Source: the human T2T-CHM13v2.0 reference genome, Homo sapiens
Assembly (NCBI RefSeq): GCF_009914755.1
Contig: NC_060935.1
Direction: 5' to 3' (one strand)
Length of the DNA stretch: 64,000 bases
Under the pieces are notes generated by a model that was not told the origin of the DNA, made no database searches, and was given only the letters and a program-made list of their open reading frames with translations. Below are positions 23,865 to 60,169 of this stretch, piece after piece. Numbering within the stretch: position 1 is the first letter of the stretch; every line of letters starts with the position of its first letter. A program made the position numbers and the translations under genes.

Positions 23865-26800
23865 TTTTATTATTTCCATAGGTTTTTGGGGAACAGGTAG
23901 TATTTGCTTACATAAGTTCTTTAGTGGTTTGTGAGATTTTGGTGCGCCTGTCACCCAAGCAGTATACACTGAACCCAGTTTGTAGCCTTTTTCCCCTCAC
24001 CCCCTTCCCACCCTTTCCTCATGAGTCCTTGAAGTCTATTGTATCATCCTTATGCCTTTGCATTCTCATAGCTTAGCTCCCACTTACGAGTGAGAACATA
24101 CAATGTTCGGTTTTTCATTCCTGAGTTACTTCGCTTAGAATAATAGTCTCCAATCCCATCTTGTTTGCTGCAAATGCCATTAATTCATTGCTTTTTATGG
24201 CTGAGTAGTATTCCATTATACATATATACCACAATTTCTTTATCCACTCATTGATTGATGGGCATTTGGGCTAGTTCCACATTTTTGTAATTACAAATTG
24301 TGCTGCTATAAACATGCGTGTGCAAGTATCTTTTTTGTATAATGACTTCTTTTCCTCTGGGTAGATACCCATTAGTGGATCAAATGGTAGTTCTGCTTTT
24401 AGATCTTTAAAGAATCTCCAGACTGTTTTCCATAGTGGTTGTACTGGTTTACATTCCTACCAGCAGTGTAGAAGTGTTCCCTTGTCAGCACATCCATGCC
24501 AACATCTATTTTTTTTTTTTTTGATAATGGTCATTCTTGAGGGAGTAGGGTGGTATCACATTGTGGTTTTGATTTGCATTTCTGTGATCATTAGTTATGT
24601 TGAGCATTTTTTCATATGTTTGATGGCCATTTGTATATCTTATTTTGAGCAATTTCTATTCATGCTCTTAGCCCACTTTTTGATGGGATTGTTTATTTCT
24701 TGCTAATTTGTTAGAGTTCCTTGTAGATTCTGGATATTATTCCTTTGTCAGGTGTATAGATTGTGAAGATTTTCCCCCACTCTGTGGGTTGTCTGTTTAC
24801 TCTGCTGACTGTTCCTTTTGCTCTGCAAAAGCTCTTTAGTTTAATTTAAAGTCCCAAGTATGTATCTTTGTTTTGTTTTTGTTGCATTTGCTTTTGGGTT
24901 CTTTTGGTCATGAAACCTTTGCCTAAGCCAATGTCTAGAAGGGTTTTTCCAATGTTATCTTCTAGAATTTGTATAGTTTTAGGTCTTAGATTTAAGTCCT
25001 TGATCCATCTGGAGTTGACTTTTGTACAAGGTGAGAGATGAGGATCCAGTTTCATTCTCCTACATGTGGCTTGCCAATTATCCCAGCACCATTTGTTGAA
25101 TAGGGTGTCCTTTCCCCACTTTATGTTTTTGTTTGCTTTGTTGAAGATCAGTTGGCTGTAAGTATTTGGATTTATTTCTTGGTTCTCTGTTCTGTTCCAC
25201 TGGTCTATGTGCCTATTTTTATACCAGTACCATGCTGTTTTGGTGACTGTGGCTTTATAATATAGTTTGAAATCAGGTAATGTGATGCCTCCAGATTTGT
25301 TCTTTTTGCTTAGTCTTGCTTTGGCTAGGTAGACTCTTTTCAGTTCCATGTGAATTTTAGGAATGTTTTTTCTAGTTCTGTGAAGAATGATGGTGGTATT
25401 TTGATGGGAATTGCATTGAATTTATAGATTGCTTTTGGCAATATGATTATTTTCACAATGTTAATTTTACCCATCCATGAGCATGACATGTGTTTTCCAT
25501 TTGTTTGTGTCTATGATTTCTTTCAGCAGTGTTTTGTAGTTGTCCTTGCAGAGGTCTTTCACCTCCTTGGTTAGATATATTCCTAAGTATTTTATTTTAT
25601 TTGTAAAAAAGAAAAGCTTATTGTAAAAAAAGGTTGAGTTCTTCATTTGATTCTTAGCTTGATCACTGTTGGTGTATAGCAGAGCTACTGACTTGTGTAC
25701 ATTAACTTTGTATCCTGAAACTTTGCTGAATTCATTAATCAGTTCTAGGAGCTTTTTGGAGGAGTCTTTAGGGTTTTCTAGGTATACAGTCATACCATGA
25801 GCAAACAGCAACAGTTTGACTTCCTCTTTAGTGATTTGAATGCCCTTTATTTTTTTTCTCTTGCCTGATTGCTCTGACTAGGACTTCCAATACTACGTTG
25901 AATAGAAGTGGTGAGAGTGGGCATCCTTGTCTTGTTCCAGTTCTCAGAGGGAATGCTTTCAACTTTTCCCAGTTCAGTATTATGTTGGCTGTGGGTTGTG
26001 ATAGATGGCTTTTATTTCATTGAGGTATGTCCCTTGTATGCCGATTTTGCTGAGAGTTGTAATCATAAAAGTGATGCTGGATTTTGTCACATGCTTTTTC
26101 TGTGTCTATTGAGATGATCATGTGATGTGATTTTTGTTGTTAATTGTTTAAGTAGTGTGTCATATTTATTGACTTGCATATGTTAAACTATCCCTACATC
26201 CCTAGTATGAAACCTACTTGATAATGGTGTATTATCCTTTTTGATATGCTGTTGAATTTGGTTAGCTAGTATTTTGGTGGGGATTTTTGCATCTATGTTC
26301 AACAGGAATATTGGTGTGTAATTTTCTTTTTTTGTTATGTCCTTTCCCAGTTTTGGTGTTAGGGTGATACTAGCTTCATAGAATGATTTAGGGAGGATTC
26401 CCTCTTTCTCTATCTTATGGAATAGTGTCAATAGGATTGGTACCAATTCTTCTTTGAATGCCTGGTTTCAGCTGTGAATCCATCTGGTCCTGGACTTTTT
26501 CTGTTGGTATTTTTTTTAATTACCATTTCATTTTCACTGTTTGTTTTGGGTCTCTTCAGGGTTTCTAATTCTTCCTGATTTAAGCTAAGAGAATTGTATC
26601 TTTCCAGGAATTTATGCATCTCCTCTAGGTTTTATAGTTTATGTTCATAAAGGTGTTCATAGTAGCCTTGAATGATCTTTTGTATTTCTGTGGTGTTGGT
26701 TGTAATATCTCCCATTTTGTTTCTAATTGAGCTTATTTGGATCTTCTCTCTTTTTGGTTAATCTTGCTAATGGTCTATCAGTTTTATTTATCTTTTCAAA

Positions 26801-44890: not shown

Positions 44891-45439
44891 TTCTAGGAAG
44901 GTCCAGGGCTTTGATAAGATTATCAGAGAGTTTGTGGTCCAAAAAACATTTTAAAAAAAATGAAAACACCAACCACTTCCAAGGAGTAAATATGTTTGGG
45001 AAAAAAAACAAACCACACACCAAACCTCCACTATTCCAGTCCTCAAAGAACCTTTCTGAGCAGAGACACAGCAGTAGAACCAATATATACATTGCCCTTG
45101 GTTTCTCCCGATTCCTTCCTGATAATCTGTTGTTCTGGTTTGCATGACTGTGGTAGTGTTGGGGGTTCCCTCCCTGGTCTCGGGAGACCTTGAATGCTGG
45201 CTGGACAGCAGCTTCTAGACACCATGAGAGAGCTCCCTCAGCAGCACATAGAGAGGAGAGAGACCATGAGATTTACCACACAAAGTGGGCACTGTATGTG
45301 AAGTACATGCTGGTAGCAACAAGAACAGCGGTAAATACAGAACAGAAAATAACCATCTTTGAAATGACAACAAATGGGACACATTATCTAAGCACTAACA
45401 CCTAAGGAGGTGGCTGCCCAAGCTCTGGTAGGCAGCTCC

Positions 45440-45525
45440 TCAGGAGAGAGAGGCCGACTTCTTTCCAGGTTGCTTGGTCTTCAGTCCTTGTAACTTTTCG
45501 TCTTTTAGCGCCTTCAGGAATGTGT
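45440..45525 (-). CDS. C11orf91: C11orf91 exon 2 (YTFLKALKDEKLQGLKTKQPGKKSASLS*); total protein 193 aa
   Basis: Acceptor tttgctctcctgcag|AC, phase 1 matches exon 1; TGA at 45440-45442. Confidence 0.88.
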
Positions 45526-49786: not shown

Positions 49787-50510
49787 GAACCACAGTAATG
49801 GTAAGAACCAGGGTTTTGGACTCAAGACTTGGGACCAAACCCTGGATCCACTATGTATTTGGCTGTGCGGCTGAACCTTTCTCAACCTCATTTTTTCATC
49901 AATATAATGGGAATAGTAATGGCATCTACTTGCTTAGGTTGGCAAGACTAAGTGAGACAGTTTAAGTACCTGGCAATGGCTTGTGTTCAACATTAGCTCT
50001 TGTTATTACATATTAAAGGCCCTTAGAAGGAAAAGAGATTTTGCGTTATATTTTTTAAATGAAGCAATACAATCATTTTTTATGTATATATCTAGTTGAG
50101 GAGAAAAAATTACAGATTTTTTCCCCCTTACTCCAAGATAATCTAAACAGATTTTACTCTGGATGGCTTAATTATAACATAATCCATGAAGTTATAGCCA
50201 GGGGGTTAAATAAGAAGTTGATGACAAACTTGGTTTCTCTAACAAGTATGCAAGAAAACTCAAGTGCCACAATGAACACCCATAAACTGCTGTCAGGAGG
50301 CAAAGTCCCTATGAGGTAATAATAAACCCACGAGGTTAAGGCAAAACCCTACGGTTGTTTCTGCAAACAAATGTCCAGGAAACTCAAGTTTGTGATGAAA
50401 GAACAGTCTTGAATTCAACTTCAGCAGAACCTTTCCCTCCCTGGGCTCCAAAGCACTATGTCACCTACCTCTCCACTCAAATGCCCCATTAAGTACCATC
50501 CTGTTGGAGC

Positions 50511-50975
50511 TTCCTAACGCCCCTGCTCCCTGGTTTCATTTGGAACCAACTGAGAGACACAAGTCCCTCTTCGTTGATCAGGGTCAGTTGAAAGATGTAG
50601 CTGTCGGCCTGGTAGCCAGGTGGGCTTGCTAATCCTGCACCTCTACCTTAAGCTTACCCAGCGTGAGGCCAGGTTAGAAAGTCACAGGCCTTGGCAGCAG
50701 GCAGAGAGCCTTTACTGTCATAGTGAAGAGCTTGCCAAGGACAGGACTGATTCTTCCTCCAGCCTCACCTATCGGGGCAGTCATTGTTCCGCTGTCAGGA
50801 GGAGAGGGGCCAGAAGGGTCACACTGAAGAAATGTGACATGAGGGTGGAGGTTCCTGTCCAGCATTCTTCACTCTCTATTTAACCGAGGCTGACTCATTG
50901 CAGTTGGCACTAATTTTCCATTGCCACAGCCCTCTCCAGCCAGGAGGGCCTGGAGTACCTGAGGTGCTGTTTGCC
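50511..50975 (+). repeat. Copy 1 of ~465 bp direct duplication
   Basis: ~96-97% identical to 54660-55129. Confidence 0.95.
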
Positions 50976-52469
50976 GGGTTCCCTTGGTCCTCAGACTGCT
51001 CCCTTCAGAGAAAGCACAGAAAGCCTTCTCTGTCCCAAGGAGCCCCCCTTCCCCTCCCCCACTCCAGCTCTGCATCTGGACACACTGTCAGCCATCAGAT
51101 CCTGACCAGGTGCTCAGCCTCTTTAGGGATATGTCACAATTTGCCGTGCCCGGTGGCTCTGGGCAGCCTTTGGACATGTAGTGGTTGTGTCTTGGAATAC
51201 AAGAGTTGTGCCTGAATCTGGGACTCTCTGTGACCCTGGGAAAATCACATCAGCTCTCTGAACCCCAATTGTCTCTGATCTATAAAATGAAGACAGTATC
51301 TACTTCATAGGATTGATTTGATGGACATATGTATAAGCAGTGCCAGGGACAACTAGTAGGTGGTCATTGGAGTGTGGCTACAGTTATTATACAGTTACAC
51401 ATGGATTCCTTGATTCCCCATTAAGCCCTGGTGGATGAATGAGGAAAATGCAGCAGGGGGTCCATCCTAGAAAACCCAACCCACTCCAGATAATCGCGCC
51501 AGCCTCACACCTGAGAAGCTGCTTCTACGACCTGCTGAGGACATAATGATAAACACACACAAGAGGCTACTGTGTCCCAGGCACTTGTCTTAACTCATTT
51601 AACTTTTCTAACAACCCTAAACCTAGGGTTCTCATTTTCCAGATGAGAAAACTGAGGCATGTAAGGTTAAGTAACTTGCCTGAGGGTCGCCGATTAGCAT
51701 CAGAGCCGGCATTTCAAATAGACAGGCCAGCTCTAGAGGCCAGGGTGTTTGGACAGCCTCCAAATTGTCACCCTAGCCTTCAGGGCAAGGCTGCACACAC
51801 GGCCTCTAGTCTCCTACCCCTCTTCCTGGCAGGAGGCTGGCTCTGACAGGAGGTTGTTTGTGCCACAATTTAAGGACCAAGCTATTCTGGGAAGCCCAGA
51901 ACAGTCTTTCCTTTATTATTCATCTCAATTAACCATTGTGTTGGTCTGGACTTGGGGGTGCAGGCATTCCCATCTCCCTTTCAAAAAAGTTTCTAAAAAA
52001 TGCAGAGCAGCCTTTATTCTTGTTTTCCCAGGTAAATGTGGTCCTATGTACTTGCAGAGTAAGAATTTAAAAAAATAAACCTGAGAGGTAGTTTAGTGGA
52101 ATAGGGAGTACAGAGGCCTGGAAGATGAGGGAGCTGGGTTTAAGCCCCATCAACCGGCATCAACTAGCCATGCTACCTTGGGCAAAATAACCGTAGCTAA
52201 CACTTAGTGACCACTTACTGTTGTGCGTTCTCATGTTATCCTGACAGTAACACTTATAGGGTAGGTCTGTCAGAATTTTCTGTCCACAAGCAACAGAAGC
52301 TTACACTGAGAATTTATTGGAGGGCTTTGAGACAGCTCATGTAATGGAAAGCTCTTAAGAACTAGGTTTAGAAGGTGCAGAGACCAGGGCAACTTCAGGG
52401 ATCCAGGTAGCAGGAAGGAATCGGTAGCCTCTTTGGTATGGCCACTATGGTGGTAGACACTGTCTACCT

Positions 52470-52810
52470 TGTTTGCTGAGTCTTCTGGCTTTCTTCCACT
52501 CTTCCTGCTCTTGGACATCAGACTCCAGGTTCTTCAGCCTTTGGAATCTAGGACTTGCACCAGTGGGTTGGTTGCCAGGGGCTCTTGGGCCTTTGGCCAC
52601 AGACTGAAGGCTGGCTGCACTGTCAGCTTCCCCAGTTTTGAGGTTTTTGAACTCAGGCTGAGCCACTACTGGCTTCTCTCTAACCCAGCTTGCAGACGGC
52701 CTATTGTGCGACTTCGCCTTCTAACTGTGGGAGCCAGTTCTCCCTAATAACCTCCCTTTCATATATACATATATCCTACTAATTCTGTCCCTCTGGAGAA
52801 CCCTAATACA
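52470..52810 (+). mobile_element. MLT2 (ERVL) LTR 3' part
   Basis: ggacatcagactccaggttcttcagcctttgga...ctctggagaaccctaataca. Confidence 0.75.
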
Positions 52811-54659
52811 TGAATTATAACTCTAAGTTTCAGTTCTGGCCATAGCATTATGTCACACCAACACCAGCATCAATATTTTAGGTTGCCTAATTAATGTATC
52901 TGTAAACCTATAGCCAGCTTGGGTGGGGCTATTGAGAGTCAGCACCAGCACTGATCATATATAGGATCAGCCTACTGGGGTTGGCCACGTTGTATGTAGC
53001 TGCGAATAGCAAGGAGGGGAACAGCAACATCCCTAGGGAAACCGATCACAGAAAGGCAGCTCACTACCCCACAGTAAAAAGAACCTTGAGTTTCCCAGTT
53101 CAGTCCCCTGCTGGGTGCATGCTACCCCCCTCCTCTCCCAGAGGCTCTGGACCTACACAGCTGCTGAAAAAGAGAAAATGTCCTTACCTACAATGAACCA
53201 TCACAGGCACCCACCTAGAAATTAAGGTACTGTGGTCATTTATCTTATCCCAGAATAACAGGAGTGTGTATAAACAGGAAGCTTTAGTTTAGATAAATAA
53301 GATTATCCATTACAAAAATTTTATATTGAATAACCTGTAAGTAATTTGAAAAAGAGACTTCTGGCTAGTTTTCACTTATGTCCAAGTCAGTGGGGGTAAA
53401 TGCATTGTGATTCACTGTAGGTTTTAGACTCTTACAGCCTTAACAACCTTGTAAATCCATAACTAGCATCTTCCTATCTGGCAGACCCTTTACAAATGCA
53501 TTATCTCAAGCCTCACAACAATTCTTTGAGGTAGACATAGAAAGTGAAAGTTCAGAAAGGGTTTAAAAAAAAAAAAAAAAAAAAACTTGTCCAGAGACAT
53601 AGCCAATTAGTGGAAGAGGGTTTGAACCCAGGTTCCTAACTACAAAATCCACGGGTTTAACTGCTGCTCTCCTGAAATGAAATATCTACAAGAAGTAGCA
53701 GGCATTGAGAAACAGATGGGAAGATAGTGTTTTGATATGATTTTCTGTTTACAGGAAGGCCTAACTACGTCCTGTTCACCTCATGCTATTGGGTAACTTT
53801 CCAGTAAAAAACAATTGCACTTTGTTTTCTTTTCCAAAAAGAGGCAGAAACTGATTTCTTCAAAGTAAAAAGGCACCAGGGACCCATTCTAGACTTTCCA
53901 AAGCTAGGCACATATTAAAGAGAGTATACAAAATAGGCAGAGAAGTAGACTTGCTGACCTGAGGAGCTGAGTGGGAAGCATGGACTTGCCAACTTACCTA
54001 AGTGACCTTGAGCGATCCAGCTAACTTTGCATAGTTTCCTCTTGTGTAAAGTGAGGTGCAAGTACAGATGAAAATGTATATAAAACATAGAGCTTAGAAT
54101 CCTGTACCAGAAAGCTGCCCTCATCACAATGAATGTCAGTCAGTACTAGCTCCAGCCAGCTGCTCAGCCCATCAAGAATCCCTCAGGGGGATCTGTTAGC
54201 ATTAGTTCAGATCTGTTGGCAGCAACAGAAACTAATGCGAGCTAGTAGACTTTGAACACTGCTAAAGAACTTACCAAGAGAACTCAGATGTATAAAAGTG
54301 GTTAATTCTGTCAAGAGGCCCAAAGTCTTGGGCAGGCTCTTATTTTTTCAGGACACACATAAGACATGGGGGCTAACTGCAAGGACACAAGAAAAATATA
54401 CCCATACCTTGAAGCCCCCAGTACATTCAAGACCAAGTTTGGCAAATAGATTAGCATCTTTCAGGAAATACCATGAGCTCCACTTATCTACTCATCAGGT
54501 GTTCCTTGCACCCCTAGCTCATCCCCCCAAGGGGACAATCCAATGGGCTTATCACCACCCAATACTGAACACTATGACAGTTCCTGTAAATCCAGATGAG
54601 TGGAGGGCACAGGGTATTGGCTCTCGAGCAGAGAGCCAGTAGGCATGACTGGTGTTCGA

Positions 54660-55129
54660 TTCCTAACTCCCCTGCTCCCTGGTTTCATTTGGAACCAACT
54701 GAGACAGACACATGAATCCCTCTTCGTTGATCAGGGTCAGTTGGAGGATGTAGCTGTCGGCCTGGTAGCCAGGTGGGCTTGCTAATCCTGCACCTCTACC
54801 TTAAGCTTACCCAGCGTGAGGCCAGGTTAGAAAGTCACAGGCCTTGGCAGCAGGCAGAGAGCCTTTACTGTCATAGTGAAGAGCTTGCCAAGGACAGGAC
54901 TGATTCTTCCTCCAGCCTCACCTATCGGGGCAGTCATTGTTCCGCTGTCAGGAGGAGAGGGGCCAGAAGGGTCACATTGAAGAAATGTGACATGAGGGTG
55001 GAGGTTCCTGTCCAGCACTCTTACACTCTCTATTTAACCTAGGCTGACTCACTGCAGTTGGCACTAATTTTCTATTGCCACAGCCCTCTCCAGCCAGGAG
55101 GGCCTGGAGTACCTGGGGTGCTGTTTGCC
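54660..55129 (+). repeat. Copy 2 of ~465 bp direct duplication (in CD59 3'UTR)
   Basis: Identical ORF-track peptides at 50674-50865 and 54827-55018. Confidence 0.95.
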
Positions 55130-57138
55130 TAGTACTATAAATGTCTTTACATTACAGTATTGCCTTTGGGTCCAGGCACTCAACCTTGTCTATGGCATGA
55201 GTCACAGCAACTTTTTGCAGAAAGCAACCCCAAAGTTTAAGGCCATTTATATGACCCTTGTTGATTTGGACAGCTTAACAGCCCCATCTCCCCATTTAGT
55301 GGCACTCAGATTTTGCTTTAGAGGACTACCTTCTTCCCAGTGTAGTCTGGCCAAAAAGTGGGTACATGACACAAGATAGCAGTAAGCCAATCTCATCCTA
55401 GAATCTCAATCCTGAGAGAGGCTTCCAAAACTGTCGACTCCTGGCTTTCTGGAGTGTGGCTGAATTCCCCACCCCCCCGCCCCCAAAAAAGTTCCCAGAA
55501 ATTCATTTTCTGCTTAAATTCATCAAAATTGTTTCTCATTCCTTAGAACTCACATGAAATGAGCTTCTTTGCTCAGCCGGTGGCTGTGGGCATGGTCAGT
55601 ACTTCCTCAGGCCAAAAAAAAAAAAAAAAACCTATTGATGTAAGGAAAGACACTGAGCTAACAGAGAACACAGAGCACCAAGGTAATGCTAAGTTTTGAT
55701 AAGCAAGTTTCTATTTTCCTATGTTCAGGGAACGGCATCAACAGAAGAAAGCTGGCACTGCTCAGGATGTCTTCTTTCAGTTGCTACCATTAAGCATACT
55801 GCATATCCTTTTCGGCCATAACCACATTCACCCACTTGTTATATTTCATTTTCAGAAAAGCATCATTCATTGCACTCGGTTTGTCCAACAGAGTATAATC
55901 AAGGGTTTTTTTTCAACATTAATCAAGAAATTCCTCCATCTGCAAAAGTCAGCCTATGCCATTAAATACAGCCAAGATCATAAAATACAAATGTCATTAG
56001 GTCTACTGAATCTTGAGATTCATTCACTAGAATACACAGGGAAAAGGAAAAAGTTTGCCCTTGTGAAAGGTGTGTATCATTTTTTAGAAGAGCTTCTGAA
56101 AGCCTCAAACATCTGTGAGTGTGCTAAGAGCCGTTACAAAGGTATTTTATACAATCTATGCTGAGTCAGCTAGGAGTTAGCAGGAGGCTGGATGCAGATG
56201 GTAAAACATACCCCTGCAGATCTGTTGTTATTAAGGATGACCTTTGGAAGTCTCAAACTGTAACCACAAAGGGTGTCCCCACTGCATTCATACTATATAC
56301 ACACATACCTGAACTGCCTTTCTACCAGTAACATTTAAAATAAGCACACTTAATACTGCCAGTCACATGTAGTAGAGTGTTCACTCTGTAACTGTGTGTG
56401 GCAAAGCCAAGATATCCTACCATTCCAATAAAAAAAAGGCAAGGAAATAGCTTTAACACACCATTGATGTATGCTATTACACTTTTCCAGTGGAAGATAA
56501 CAAAGCCCATATAAAATTTAAAGACAGAGGAAAAACTCGATTTTCAGCCACTTGTACCTCTCTAAGTTTTCATGCCCTGCTATCTGGAACACTTCCCCAC
56601 TTCCCTGCCAGAAGTCCTCTAGCTCTGCATTAAGGATCTTGTTGTCCCTGACTGACACCCACATATGGAACATTTGGCATGCCTCCATGGCAACACGGGA
56701 TCCCTGAAGTTTATGAAAGCGTTCCATGTGAGAGAGGATGCTCATATACTCCTGCCCCACCCTCCAAAGATGTACTAATGATGCTAACTGACTACATCCA
56801 AGGAGCCAGAGGAAAAATAATCTGAGGGCTGCAGAGAACCCACTCAAGCTGTCACTGCAAAGCTGGTCTTCCCAAGAGCAAAGGAGGAAGCATGCAATCT
56901 AGTTCAAGTCACACCTACTTCACTCTTAGACTTCTTCCTTCAAGTGGGGCTTCCCTGCAAACAGGACTGGTCTTCAAAGTCTCCCAGAGCCCCTCTATCT
57001 TAGCCAGGTTGCTCAAGCTAATTTTATTCTTTCCCAACAGGATCCATTTGGAAAATATCAAGCCTTTAGAATGTGGCAGCAAGAGAAAGCGGACTACGCA
57101 GGAACGGGGAGTTTGGGAGAAGCTCTCCTGGTGTTGAC

Positions 57139-57356
57139 TTAGGGATGAAGGCTCCAGGCTGCTGCCAGAAATGGAGTCACCAGCAGAAGAACTGTTTTCT
57201 CTGATAAGGATGTCCCACCATTTTCAAGCTGTTCGTTAAAGTTACACAGGTCCTTCTTGCAGCAGTAGTACGTTAGCTCATTTTCCCTCAAGCGGGTTGT
57301 GACGTCGTTGAAATTGCAATGCTCAAACTTCCAACACTTGTTATACACTTGTAACC
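57139..57356 (-). CDS. CD59: CD59 terminal coding exon (G-LQVYNKCWKFEHCNFNDVTTRLRENELTYYCCKKDLCNFNEQLEN-GGTSLSEKTVLLLVTPFLAAAWSLHP*): end of Ly6/uPAR domain plus GPI signal
   Basis: Recognised CD59 sequence; CCxxDLCN LU motif; acceptor tctccccacag, phase 1; TAA at 57139-57141; upstream exons lie beyond the window. Confidence 0.97.
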
Positions 57357-57719
57357 CTGTGGGGAGACACACACAAGGGTAAGAAAGTAAGTGGGAAGAG
57401 TTCTGTATCTGCTTTTGAATCCTCAATTCTATTTCGTATGTATCCTGTGCAAGTAGAGACTTCTAGGCAAGATGCTCATCCCAGGTGGGTTGTAAAGGAG
57501 AACAATTAAGTAAATAATGATACACCTCTAAATAGAGCTTTTACAGAAAACCAAGGTCTCATCAGAGCCAGTATAGTTATGGGGGTGGGACGGAGGAGGA
57601 ACAGGCATTTATACTGTTAAGAGGGAAATTTGGTAATATCTGCCAAGATTTTAAACACATGCCCCCTTTGATCCAGCAATTCCACTTTTAGAATTTACGC
57701 TATGAAGTTACTTGGGGAT

Positions 57720-57870
57720 TTTTTCCTTTTCTTTTCTTTTTTTTTTTTAGAGAGATAAGGTCTCACTTTCTTGCCCGGTCATCTGGTCTTGAACTCCTGG
57801 GCTCAAGTGGTCCTCCTGCTTCAGCCTCCCAAAGTGATAGAATTATAGGGGTGAGCCACCATGCCCAGCC
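57720..57870 (-). mobile_element. Alu monomer (FLAM)
   Basis: Left-arm Alu with poly-T. Confidence 0.85.
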
Positions 57871-58396
57871 AAAGCTATGTATAAGATATATGCTCAAGAA
57901 TGGTCAGAAAAAAACCTGAAAAACCCAGTCCATTAATTTTTAAAAAGTGTTAAAGAAATTACAATAGAATTCCTTACAATGCAAGTTCCATGCAGATAAG
58001 AAATGACGTGGGCCTTCAAGTGCTAACATGGAAGGAGCTTGATTTAAAAAAAAAAAAATAAAGGTGGGGGGGGGGCAGAAAAATAGGTAAACTGGACTCC
58101 ATCAAAATTTAAAACTTTTGTGCTTCAAAGGACATTATCAAAAAATAAAAAGATAACTCACAGAAAGGGAGAAAATGTTTGCAAATCACATGTAAACCAC
58201 CAGGTGCGGTGGCTCACACCTGTAATCCCAACACTTTGGGAGGCTGAGATGGGAGAATTGTTTGAGGCGGGAAGTTTCAGACCAGCCTGGTCAACATGGC
58301 AAGACCCCCTCTCTATTTCTTTTTTAAAGTCATATGTAAGAGCATAGTATCCAGGATATAGAAAACATTCTTAAACTCTACAATAAAAAGACTAAC

Positions 58397-58518
58397 CCAA
58401 TTAAAATATGGACAATGAGGCCAGTGTGATGGCTCACACCTGTAATCCCAGCACTTTAGGAGGCTGAAGTGAGAGGATTGCCTGCGGCCAGCCTGGGCAA
58501 CATAGTGATATCCCAACT
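58397..58518 (-). CDS. CD59: Candidate Alu-derived alternative CD59 cassette exon ([41 protein letters not shown])
   Basis: Poly-U acceptor from the antisense Alu linker (ttttgtag|AG), donor TGG|gttagt; open frame from phase 1. Confidence 0.6.
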
Positions 58519-58700
58519 CTACAAAAATAAAAAATAAAAAAATTAGCCAGGCAGGGTGTTGCGCCTTTAGTCTTAGCTACTTGGGAGGCTGAGGCAGGAG
58601 GATCACTTGGACTCAGGACTTTAAGGCTGCAGTGAGCTATGATTGTACTGCTGCATTCCAGCCTAGGCAACAAAGCAAGACCTTGCCTCTTTAAAAAAAA
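58419..58700 (+). mobile_element. AluJ (antisense to CD59)
   Basis: Alu consensus with a left-arm deletion. Confidence 0.9.
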
Positions 58701-59037
58701 ATGGGCAAAGGATTTGAATAAACATTTCTCCAAAGAAGATTCTCAAATGGCCAATAAGTACATGAAAAGATGCTTGATATCATTAGTCATTAGGAACATG
58801 CAAATGAAAATCACAGTGAGATACCACTTTATACTCACTAGGATGGCTAAGATCAAGAAAATGGTAAATAGCAAATGTTGCAAGGAAGTGGAAAAAATTG
58901 GAACCCTCAAACATTGCTGGTGGGAATGTAAAATGGTGTAGATACTCTGGACAAATTTGGCATTTCTGCAAAAAGTTAAAGATAGAGTTATCCATTTGAC
59001 TGAGCAATTCCACTCACAAGTGTATATACTTCTGCCA

Positions 59038-60169
59038 TTCTCTGGAAGGATTCCCAAGTAATTTAATACTGTTATCATCATGGAAGAATACACTTCGTTT
59101 ATGTTTCTATTGAGTTTTTCAAATTTGCCACATGGATAATTTTTAAAATATTTGAAACTTCATTTTAAAAATCATTAGATTATTCAGTAATACAGGAAAA
59201 GTTTCTATAAGAACATGCTATCATGGTCTCATTTTTGGAAAAATAGCCTTGGGCACACAGGAAAATAAAGGCCAGATGTATACACTCCAAGTATCTTATC
59301 GTAGTTTGAATTGAAAACTACGTTCACACACAAGTTTCCACATGAATGTTCATGGCACCATGATTCAAAATTGCTAAAAAGTGGAAACAACCCATATGTC
59401 CATTACTGGTGAATGGATAAACAAAATGTGATATATCCACACAATAGAATACTATGTGGCCACAACAGAATGAAGTACTGATACATGCCACAGCATGAGT
59501 GAACCTTGGAAACATTATGTTTAGTGAAAAAAAAGCTAGTCGCAAAGTGCCACAATACTGTATGATTCCTTGCATATGAAGTGCCCAGGAGAGCCAAATC
59601 TATGAAGACAGAAAGTACATCAGTCACTGCTGGGGCATGCAGGAGGGAGGAATGAGGACTGACTGCTAACAGGTTTCTTTTCAAGGTGACAGAAAGATCC
59701 TGGAATTAGACAGTTGCGATAAGTCATACAACCTTGTAAATATACTAAGAGCCACTGAATTATACACTTTAAAATGTAAACGTTCTGGTCTGTGAATTAT
59801 ATCTCAATAAAAACCCTAGATGCAGAACAGTGTATAGAATGTGACCCATTTGTGGAAATAAAGCACATATACATTGAGGTAAGTGCATTTATTTTTCTCT
59901 GGAAGGATTCCCAAGTAATTTAATAGTGTTATCATCATGGAAGAATACACTTCGTTTATGTTTCTATTGAGTTTTTTTAATTTGCCACATGGATGATTTA
60001 TTTTTAAAATATTTGAAACTTCATTTTAAAAATCATTAGATTATTCAGTAATACTGGAAAAGTTTCTACAAAAAACACGCCATCATGGTCCCATTTTTGG
60101 AAAAATAGCCTTGGGCACACAGGAAAATAAAGGCCAGAAGTATATACTCCAAGTATCTTATCACAGTTT
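59038..60169 (+). repeat. Direct duplication of ~270 bp (59038-59307 and 59895-60169)
   Basis: Manual alignment, >90% identical. Confidence 0.93.

What the first reader, a model, noticed from the sequence alone, without database searches (positions are those of the whole stretch)
57288..58518. Antisense Alu exonisation that frameshifts the CD59 last exon into a non-GPI C-terminus
Seen: a 122 nt candidate exon (58518-58397) with its acceptor in the Alu A-rich linker and its donor (TGG|gttagt) in flanking L1 sequence. It enters in phase 1 and exits in phase 0. The last exon is then read as GYKCITSVGSLSIAISTTSQPA* (TGA at 57288-57290), so the terminal exon is dual-coding. The stop lies in the last exon and would escape EJC-dependent NMD. 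Known: antisense Alus are a classic source of primate-specific exons. From memory this matches the reported IRIS-2 tail.
Basis: partly seen in the sequence, partly recalled or inferred. Interest (0 to 1): 0.7.

Follow-up and report, generated by a model that had tools for sequence, protein, structure and literature searches.

The report
CD59 IRIS-2 exon is Alu-derived
The 122-base exon is real and already published as the extra exon of the non-GPI CD59 isoform IRIS-2; it is built from an old antisense Alu plus a scrap of L1, a fact catalogued elsewhere but apparently never connected to IRIS-2.

Summary
On the minus strand, 58518-58397 is a 122-nt exon with acceptor tttttgtag|AG and donor TGG|gttagt. 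Only the frame fixed by phase-1 entry is open. The last exon is then read as GYKCITSVGSLSIAISTTSQPA*, with TGA at 57290-57288.

It is the published IRIS-2 exon of CD59 (ENST00000643183.1, Golec 2022). The IRIS-2 forward primer equals 58518-58495 exactly. The antibody antigen ELGYHYVAQAGRRQ equals the junction codon plus the first 13 codons.

The same 122-nt interval is Aluexon:4778 in Attig 2016. That table calls it 'cryptic', from an AluJr in the highest substitution group. Acceptor MaxEnt is 8.4 in human, chimp and gibbon and 6.34 in rhesus; marmoset has no orthologue.

I mapped the exon as 100 nt of antisense Alu left arm plus 22 nt of antisense L1 ORF2 / target-site duplication.

The exon, the isoform and its Alu origin are therefore all in print. 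What I did not find in print is the link: no paper in the library holds CD59, IRIS-2 and Alu together. That link implies the human tail is primate-restricted and cannot be orthologous to mouse 'IRIS-2'. Whether the product is functional or low-level cryptic splicing stays open. Interest is low to moderate.

The parts
58397..58518 (-). 122-nt alternative exon of CD59 (IRIS-2 exon; Aluexon:4778)
   Evidence: Sequence and frames. The IRIS-2 forward primer matches 58518-58495 exactly and uniquely. The antigen ELGYHYVAQAGRRQ matches. The hg19 interval chr11:33732930-33733051(-) in Attig 2016 has the same length and the same geometry relative to the Alu.
58419..58518 (-). Alu-derived 100 nt of the exon (antisense left arm)
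   Evidence: The Alu 5' end (GGCCAGTG... on the + strand) begins at 58419. Self-BLAST gives 19 further hits, 10 or more of them to ~270-300 bp elements in the window at 67-72 % identity.
58397..58418 (-). L1-derived 22 nt of the exon (antisense L1 ORF2, mostly the target-site duplication copy)
   Evidence: The left flank aligns to a second, uninterrupted L1 copy at 24560-24860(-). The left and right flanks overlap there by 16-17 bp. The + strand translates as ...KKTNPIKIWTM.
58391..58396 (-). Donor intron bases gttagt (TGG|gttagt); 6 of 9 consensus positions
   Evidence: The boundary matches Attig's exon end.
58519..58546 (-). Acceptor AG (58520-58519), pyrimidine tract T7-A-T6-A-T5 (58542-58522) and candidate branch point CTAAT (A at 58543, 24 nt from the AG)
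   Evidence: Sequence. The human 3' splice site has MaxEnt 8.4 in Attig's table. The branch point is inferred from the yUnAy consensus (established knowledge) and was not tested.
58419..58701 (+). Full-length dimeric Alu (AluJr per RepeatMasker as quoted by Attig), antisense to CD59, with a 9-A tail
   Evidence: The hg19 interval 33732951-33733234(+) corresponds to window 58418-58701.
58702..58938 (+). L1 ORF2 fragment into which the Alu inserted (right flank)
   Evidence: The translation of 58693-58938(+) matches LINE-1 ORF2p residues 1070-1150 with E = 5.4e-27.
58331..58418 (+). L1 ORF2 fragment (left flank); its antisense strand supplies the exon's 3' end and the donor
57288..57356 (-). Start of the CD59 last exon read in the shifted frame (22 codons + TGA at 57290-57288)
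   Evidence: It lies within the last annotated exon 50023-57356 (hub table).
57139..57356 (-). Canonical coding part of the last exon (GPI signal; not read in IRIS-2)
   Evidence: Frame 2; hub table.
58435..58443 (-). Rival internal donor CAG|GTGTGA (exon would end at 58440; 79 nt)
   Evidence: It matches 7 of 9 consensus positions. Attig's methods name ACAG|G as the usual Alu 5' splice-site core. I found no evidence that it is used here.
57730..57871 (-). Oppositely oriented Alu monomer about 550 nt downstream in the same intron; potential dsRNA partner of the exon's Alu part and acceptor
   Evidence: BLAST hits in reverse orientation. duplexfold gives -125.8 kcal/mol against -60.6 +/- 6.0 for 100 mononucleotide shuffles. 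A regulatory role is inference only.

Best explanation
What it is. This is the IRIS-2-specific cassette exon of human CD59, in the intron before the last exon. It is made entirely of transposon sequence.

How the exon arose (shown).
- An AluJr inserted, antisense to CD59, into an old L1 ORF2 fragment that is also antisense.
- In the pre-mRNA, the antisense copy of the A-rich linker between the two Alu arms gives a U-rich tract (T7-A-T6-A-T5) ending in tag|AG.
- The exon runs through the whole antisense left arm (100 nt).
- It then continues 22 nt into the target-site duplication / L1, where TGG|gttagt serves as donor.

How it is spliced (inferred). A CTAAT 24 nt upstream of the AG is a likely branch point.

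What it does to the reading frame (shown). 122 is not a multiple of 3. Translation entering in phase 1 adds E plus 40 Alu/L1-encoded residues. It then reads the first 66 nt of the last exon one base out of frame (22 residues) and stops at TGA 57290-57288.

Consequence for the protein (follows from the sequence and established rules). The product keeps only the part of CD59 encoded upstream. It loses the C-terminal half of the Ly6/uPAR domain and the whole GPI-attachment signal, so it cannot be GPI-anchored. The stop is in the last exon, so the mRNA should escape EJC-dependent NMD.

What stays open. Regulation by U-tract binders such as hnRNPC, or by pairing with the inverted Alu downstream, is inferred. 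Whether the protein is a selected, functional product is not shown by anything I computed.
For: Sequence and frames.

Identity with IRIS-2:
- It gives the antigen as ELGYHYVAQAGRRQ.
- The IRIS-2 forward primer (PMC11705862; the primer list is also in the Golec SI) matches 58518-58495 with 0 mismatches. It is the only match in the window at up to 2 mismatches.
- The reverse primer maps to 57123-57144 in the last exon.

Independent exon boundaries and Alu origin (Attig 2016, Fig 5-source data 1, row 3884):
- chr11:33732930-33733051(-).
- Alu 33732951-33733234(+), AluJr, substitution group 'highest'.
- Class 'cryptic'; group 'Evolving Exon'; furthest species rheMac3.
- 3'ss MaxEnt / longest U-tract: human 8.4/9, chimp 8.4/9, gibbon 8.4/13, rhesus 6.34/6, marmoset NA.

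Repeat anatomy.

Length check: 56 upstream codons + 1 + 40 + 22 = 119, and 56/119 = 47.1 %. This matches the paper's 'about 47 % similarity'. The 56 rests on my recalled canonical length of 128 aa.
Against: - I saw no reads. All transcript evidence is second-hand.
- The full IRIS-2 protein sequence and the ENST exon coordinates are not printed in the texts I could read. The donor at 58397 therefore rests on Attig's Cufflinks-derived interval and on the 47 % arithmetic.
- The link between hg19 and the window rests on a recalled hg19 gene start plus offsets. It was borne out by an exact hit on both ends and by matching exon-to-Alu geometry.
- The donor is weak by consensus (6/9; T at +3). A better-looking site (7/9) lies inside the exon.
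- The RefSeq table supplied with the finding lists no CD59 exon here.
- Attig calls the exon 'cryptic', and it is absent from their GTEx table of 889 well-covered Alu-exons.
Confidence: 0.9

Rival explanations
1. The exon is real, but it is low-level cryptic splicing of an intronic Alu. The encoded protein is a misfolded by-product and not a selected, functional isoform. On this view, the reported IRIS-2 activities reflect over-expression or properties of the shared N-terminal part.
For: - Attig classifies it as 'cryptic'. It was found by Cufflinks in cell lines that included hnRNPC/UPF1-depleted samples.
- It is not among the 889 Alu-exons with enough GTEx junction coverage.
- It is not in the RefSeq table supplied.
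- The frameshift removes everything encoded by the last exon, including the C-terminal half of the disulfide-rich domain.
- The Alu has no orthologous position in marmoset and a weaker acceptor in rhesus. Yet the CD59 requirement for insulin secretion was shown in rat and mouse cells. The ancestral function therefore cannot depend on this tail.
Against: - Golec 2022 reports RT-PCR in islets and several tissues.
- It reports detection of protein with an antibody to the junction peptide, with peptide blocking.
- It reports binding to VAMP2/SNAP25, rescue of secretion in CD59-KO INS-1 cells, and lower levels in T2D islets.
- The 2025 paper reports the protein in neurons (abstract).
- Absence from a coverage-filtered table is weak evidence.
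Confidence: 0.4
2. A different splice-site pair in the same Alu is the main one used. One option is the internal donor CAG|GTGTGA at 58440. It would give a 79-nt exon with tail ...R-VTSV*. The other is the second AG of tag|AG. It would give a 120-nt exon that keeps the frame but contains TGA.
For: - The internal donor matches 7/9 consensus positions against 6/9 for the donor at 58397.
- It is the ACAG|G core that Attig names as the usual Alu donor.
- Attig kept only the larger of any overlapping exons, so a shorter form would be hidden.
- Frame 1 shows the stop that the 120-nt version would meet.
Against: - Attig's interval is 122 nt.
- The 47 % figure fits a 119-aa product. By my arithmetic the 79-nt version would give 87 aa and 64 %.
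- The published primer begins exactly at 58518, and the antigen begins with E (G+AG). That requires the first AG.
Confidence: 0.07
3. It is a chance arrangement of AG, GT and an open frame in repeat DNA, with no splicing at all.
For: Antisense Alus carry many splice-like motifs. One search lists 20 GT sites in 420 nt.
Against: Two independent published data sets use exactly these boundaries.
Confidence: 0.02

Closest known systems
CD59 IRIS-2 (ENST00000643183.1; Golec et al. 2022, PMC9214515)
   Same: It is the same exon. The primer and the antigen peptide match exactly. It lies between exon 3 and the last exon. It frameshifts the reading frame and the product has no GPI signal.
   Different: Nothing differs in the sequence. 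The papers do not say that the exon is transposon-derived. 'Alu' occurs 0 times in either main text. In the 2022 main text 'primate', 'retrotranspos' and 'transposable' each occur 0 times.
Aluexon:4778 in Attig et al. 2016 (PMC5115870), a catalogue of 6,309 exonising antisense Alus
   Same: It has the same 122-nt interval, the same Alu and the same strand. The acceptor lies inside the Alu.
   Different: The catalogue gives coordinates only. The word CD59 is absent from its 3 held supplement files. It assigns no coding consequence and makes no link to IRIS-2.
Classical antisense Alu exons (right-arm type, Lev-Maor 2003 / Sorek 2004, as summarised in Attig's methods)
   Same: An antisense Alu supplies a U-rich tract, an AG acceptor and most of the exon body. 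Inclusion is low or alternative. The exon is primate-restricted.
   Different: The usual type uses the tail-derived U-tract with the TGAG|AnGG / GAGAnAG| acceptors and the ACAG|G donor within the Alu. This exon uses the linker-derived U-tract and the left arm. It skips the internal ACAG|G site and takes its donor from flanking L1.
CD59 IRIS-1 (ENST00000534312.5)
   Same: It is another non-GPI CD59 isoform made by alternative 3' exon choice in the same window.
   Different: It uses the last exon of the neighbouring gene C11orf91 (primer at 45439-45458; peptide QGLKTKQPGKKSAS in its translation). It does not use a transposon exon, and Golec describes its exon as conserved across mammals.
Mouse CD59B 'IRIS-2' (Golec 2022)
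   Same: It is also a non-GPI splice form of a CD59 gene, and is reported to support insulin secretion.
   Different: It lacks exon 4 and has a 34-aa tail of different origin. Alu elements are primate-specific (established knowledge). The two tails therefore cannot be orthologous, and the shared name is functional only.

Membership tests
CD59 IRIS-2 isoform | [quoted passage not shown] | tested here: met
   The exon lies 1,041 nt upstream of the last exon (57356), within the intron. The hub table puts only the last of the 4 exons in the window (description).
CD59 IRIS-2 isoform | Published IRIS-2-specific primer lies in the exon | tested here: met
   There are 0 mismatches at 58518-58495. It is the only match in 64 kb, and no match appeared in 100 shuffles.
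CD59 IRIS-2 isoform | Published unique peptide ELGYHYVAQAGRRQ is encoded | tested here: met
   LGYHYVAQAGRRQ equals the first 13 codons. E = G (exon 3, not in the window) + AG. The peptide is given.
CD59 IRIS-2 isoform | Frameshift at the C-terminus, no GPI signal | tested here: met
   122 mod 3 = 2. The shifted frame stops after 22 codons, and the hydrophobic canonical tail is not read.
CD59 IRIS-2 isoform | Exact exon coordinates and full protein sequence of ENST00000643183.1 | not testable with these tools
   No Ensembl access. The sequence is not printed in the texts searched. The only support is indirect: the 122-nt interval and 56/119 = 47 %.
Antisense Alu exon | Overlaps an Alu lying antisense to the host gene | tested here: met
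   The Alu at 58419-58701 is on the + strand, with its A-tail at the high end. CD59 is on the - strand. Attig's table names it AluJr(+).
Antisense Alu exon | At least one splice site inside the Alu | tested here: met
   The acceptor at 58520-58519 lies within 58419-58701. The donor at 58396-58395 lies outside, in L1.
Antisense Alu exon | Transcript evidence of inclusion | tested here: met
   From print only. Attig required a multi-exon Cufflinks model with a junction read, or prior HeLa evidence. Golec reports RT-PCR. I examined no reads.
Antisense Alu exon | Restricted to primates; age of splice sites | tested here: inconclusive
   Attig's table gives the acceptor as present in chimp, gibbon and rhesus, weaker in rhesus (6.34 against 8.4), with no marmoset orthologue. 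Conservation of the donor and the frame was not available, and no primate genomes are in the tools.
NMD-escaping transcript (stop in last exon) | No exon junction more than ~50 nt downstream of the stop | tested here: met
   TGA 57290-57288 lies inside the last annotated exon 50023-57356 (hub table). The rule itself is established knowledge. mRNA stability was not measured.

The most novel reading that the evidence does not exclude
Human IRIS-2 is a true catarrhine-specific coding innovation. Its 63-residue C-terminal module is assembled from an antisense AluJr arm, 22 nt of antisense L1 and an out-of-frame reading of the ancestral GPI-signal exon. On this reading the module was recruited into regulated exocytosis independently of the rodent 'IRIS-2' forms. 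Its tissue-specific inclusion would be set by the linker U-tracts (hnRNPC / U2AF65 competition) and by dsRNA formation with the inverted Alu 550 nt downstream.
Probability: 0.2. Interest if true: 0.55.

Novelty: already known. Interest (0 to 1): 0.3.

Why it matters
CD59 IRIS-2 is being put forward as a player in insulin secretion, type 2 diabetes and Alzheimer's disease. Knowing that its defining exon is an AluJr/L1 exon changes how that work should be read and designed.
- The human tail cannot exist in rodents, so mouse 'IRIS-2' models test a different protein.
- Regulators of Alu exons (hnRNPC, U-tract length, inverted-Alu pairing, possibly editing) become candidate causes of its reported down-regulation in disease.
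- The exon offers a clean target for an endogenous loss-of-function test, which has not been reported in the texts I read.
- The exon, the isoform and its Alu origin are each in print, so the gain here is a link, not a discovery.

Tried and rejected
- Pfam scan of the L1 flank translations: only 2 sub-threshold chance hits for the first piece and none for the second. L1 identity was shown through solved ORF2p structures instead.
- PDB sequence searches with the short left-flank translation (26 aa) and with the 58089-58202 piece read with X at stops: no L1 hit, and one chance tau hit. They were replaced by a DNA alignment to the second L1 copy in the window.
- Self-BLAST of the left flank alone: only the self hit.
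- Searches for the exon in other catalogues. 'CD59' is absent from Attig's 3 files (which are coordinate-based) and from Lin 2016 Genome Biology's 5 held files. Ensembl gene identifiers and CD55 are absent from Attig's files. The exon is not in Attig's GTEx PSI table. Neither CD59 nor the coordinates appear in Zarnack 2013's 6 held files.
- Literature searches: CD59 + 'Alu exon' gave 1 paper, on 3'UTR Alus and unrelated. CD59 + exonization gave 3 papers and CD59 + exonisation gave 1; none concerns this exon, judged from the listings.
- Idea that the antibody epitope is a generic Alu peptide: rejected as a serious worry within this window. No other 13-mer in six frames exceeds 7/13 identity. 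There are 9 with 6-7 matches, and by position about 5 lie in Alus.
- I did not fold the IRIS-2 protein, because its N-terminal exons lie outside the window and joined sequences may not be typed.

Full report
**1. The observation**

Read on the minus strand, the sequence ...ctggctaatttttttattttttatttttgtag is followed at 58518 by AGTTGGGATATCAC.... The stretch runs to ...ATATTTTAATTGG at 58397 and is followed by gttagt.
- The exon is 122 nt long.
- Of its three frames, only the third is open, giving [40 protein letters not shown]. The other two frames hold one and two stops.
- The annotated coding part of the last exon (57139-57356, 218 nt = 2 + 72 codons) shows that the preceding exon ends in phase 1. 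The open frame is therefore exactly the one that is used.
- The exon exits in phase 0. The last exon is then read as GYKCITSVGSLSIAISTTSQPA*, with TGA at 57290-57288.
- The canonical frame of the same bases gives the known C-terminus ending in the hydrophobic GPI signal ...LLLVTPFLAAAWSLHP*.

**2. Identity with IRIS-2**

Golec et al. 2022 (PMC9214515) describe IRIS-2, ENST00000643183.1. I read the outline and abstract, and searched passages of the main text and the SI. [quoted passage not shown] They give it 'about 47 % similarity' to CD59 and no GPI anchor.
- The IRIS-2-specific forward primer is printed in the 2025 follow-up (PMC11705862); the Golec SI also lists the primers. It matches 58518-58495 without mismatch. 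It is the only match in the window at up to two mismatches, and it starts on the first base of the exon.
- The common reverse primer maps to 57123-57144.
- The antigen for the anti-IRIS-2 antibody is ELGYHYVAQAGRRQ, with a cysteine added for coupling. This is the junction codon G|AG followed by the first 13 codons of the exon.
- The full protein is not printed in the texts I could search. Its length can still be checked. If the canonical precursor is 128 aa (my recollection), 56 codons lie upstream. The product would then be 56 + 1 + 40 + 22 = 119 aa, and 56/119 = 47.1 %, which is the published figure.

**3. Independent confirmation of both boundaries, and of the Alu origin**

Attig et al. 2016 (PMC5115870; passages and supplements searched) list 6,309 exonising antisense Alus. 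I predicted the hg19 coordinates from a recalled gene start plus window offsets and searched their Figure 5-source data 1. Row 3884 reads as follows (column meanings):
- Aluexon:4778, chr11:33732930:33733051:-
- 'cryptic', rheMac3, 'Evolving Exon'
- Alu chr11:33732951:33733234:+, AluJr, substitution group 'highest'
- 3' splice site MaxEnt / longest U-tract: human 8.4/9, chimp 8.4/9, gibbon 8.4/13, rhesus 6.34/6, marmoset NA

The length is 122 nt. The exon-to-Alu geometry is that of the window: the exon starts 21 nt before the Alu and ends 183 nt before the Alu's other end, which corresponds to 58397/58418 and 58518/58701.

'Cryptic' means that the exon was absent from the UCSC hg19 annotation. 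It was predicted by Cufflinks from RNA-seq of cell lines that included hnRNPC- and UPF1-depleted samples, with junction support or earlier HeLa evidence.

The exon is not in their table of 889 Alu-exons with sufficient GTEx coverage.

**4. Anatomy**

Alu.
- The interval 58415-58705 gives 19 further BLAST hits in the window. Ten or more are to elements of about 270-300 bp at 67-72 % identity, in both orientations. That is the picture of an old, full-length dimeric Alu.
- Its 5' end is at 58419, and its tail of nine A's ends at 58701 on the + strand. It is therefore antisense to CD59.

L1.
- The + strand just beyond the tail (58693-58938) translates to a sequence matching human LINE-1 ORF2p residues 1070-1150 at E = 5.4e-27.
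- The other flank reads ...KKTNPIKIWTM.
- Both flanks align to a second, uninterrupted L1 copy at 24560-24860(-). They overlap there by 16-17 bp, which is the target-site duplication.

The exon is thus 100 nt of antisense Alu left arm (58518-58419) plus 22 nt of antisense L1 / duplication (58418-58397), with its donor in L1. In the one other L1 copy available, the homologous position carries no GT.

Splice signals.
- The acceptor sits at the end of the antisense linker. This forms a T7-A-T6-A-T5 tract, with a CTAAT 24 nt upstream of the AG as a plausible branch point (sequence; the branch point is inference).
- The donor matches 6 of 9 consensus positions.
- A 7-of-9 site, CAG|GTGTGA, lies inside the exon at 58440. 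It is the usual Alu donor core.

**5. How it works**

Shown:
- Inclusion shifts the frame.
- It replaces everything encoded by the last exon with 63 new residues.
- It removes the GPI signal.

Follows from the standard rule:
- The stop is in the last exon, so EJC-dependent NMD should not act.

Inferred:
- The U-tracts at the acceptor may make the exon a target of hnRNPC / U2AF65 competition. They are shorter than the 9-10 U that Attig cites for cooperative hnRNPC binding.
- The acceptor plus the whole Alu part of the exon (58540-58418) can pair with an oppositely oriented Alu monomer at 57871-57730 in the same intron. duplexfold gives -125.8 kcal/mol against -60.6 +/- 6.0 for 100 mononucleotide shuffles. 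This could mask the exon or attract editing.

**6. Real protein or noise?**

For function, Golec reports:
- RT-PCR in islets and other tissues;
- detection with the junction-peptide antibody, with peptide blocking;
- binding to VAMP2 and SNAP25;
- rescue of secretion in CD59-knockout rat INS-1 cells;
- lower levels in diabetic islets.

Against:
- The exon is classed 'cryptic', is missing from RefSeq as supplied, and is missing from the GTEx table.
- The C-terminal half of the disulfide-rich domain is lost.
- The ancestral CD59 role in secretion exists in rodents, which cannot have this tail.

I leave this open, with about 0.4 for 'non-selected by-product'.

**7. Novelty**

The isoform (2022) and the Alu-exon (2016) are both in print, so the feature is already known. 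What I could not find is the connection between them.
- 'Alu' occurs 0 times in either IRIS main text.
- 'primate', 'retrotranspos' and 'transposable' occur 0 times in the 2022 main text.
- 'primate' occurs 0 times in the 2025 main text and in the 2022 SI.
- ENST00000643183 occurs in only those two papers.
- No paper in the searched library holds CD59, IRIS-2 and Alu together.
- Attig's files do not contain the word CD59.

The library does not cover most subscription journals. 'Not in print' therefore means not found in these searches.

The practical consequence is that human IRIS-2 is restricted to primates: at least catarrhines by Attig's table, possibly older given that the element is an AluJr. 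It cannot be orthologous to mouse CD59B 'IRIS-2', whose tail has a different origin.

Noticed in passing
45272-45525 (-), C11orf91 last exon: The IRIS-1 reverse primer maps to 45439-45458, and the IRIS-1 antigen QGLKTKQPGKKSAS is encoded here (translation TFLKALKDEKLQGLKTKQPGKKSASLS*). C11orf91's first coding part is 496 nt, so this exon is entered in phase 1. CD59 exon 3 also ends in phase 1, so the IRIS-1 tail would be identical to the C-terminus of C11orf91 itself (hub table arithmetic).
   Followed up: partly
57730-57871 (-) and 58418-58540 (-): An inverted Alu pair lies within the same intron. The exon's Alu part and its acceptor can form a long duplex with a downstream Alu monomer of opposite orientation: -125.8 kcal/mol against -60.6 +/- 6.0 for shuffles. 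This is possible masking of the exon or an editing substrate.
   Followed up: partly
58517-58520 (-): Tandem acceptor tag|AG. Use of the second AG would give a 120-nt exon that keeps the frame but meets a TGA about 40 nt before the exon's end (frame 1).
   Followed up: no
59038-59200 and 59895-60061 (+): A direct repeat of about 165 bp at 94.6 % identity, about 860 bp apart in the CD59 intron. Matching ORF translations appear. Its origin was not examined.
   Followed up: no
58204-58330 (+): A second antisense Alu monomer, also inserted into the same L1 fragment, lies about 70-190 nt downstream of the exon's donor. Its antisense reading is open (..[39 protein letters not shown]..), but I saw no evidence of exon use.
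   Followed up: no
24448-24860 (-): A second old L1 ORF2 fragment covers the same part of ORF2 without an Alu insertion. It was useful as the 'empty site' comparison.
   Followed up: partly
58478-58516 (-): The antibody epitope is encoded by Alu sequence. Related 13-mers from other Alus in the window reach only 6/13 identity, for example [13 protein letters not shown] and [13 protein letters not shown]. Cross-reaction with other Alu-exon products genome-wide was not assessed.
   Followed up: partly
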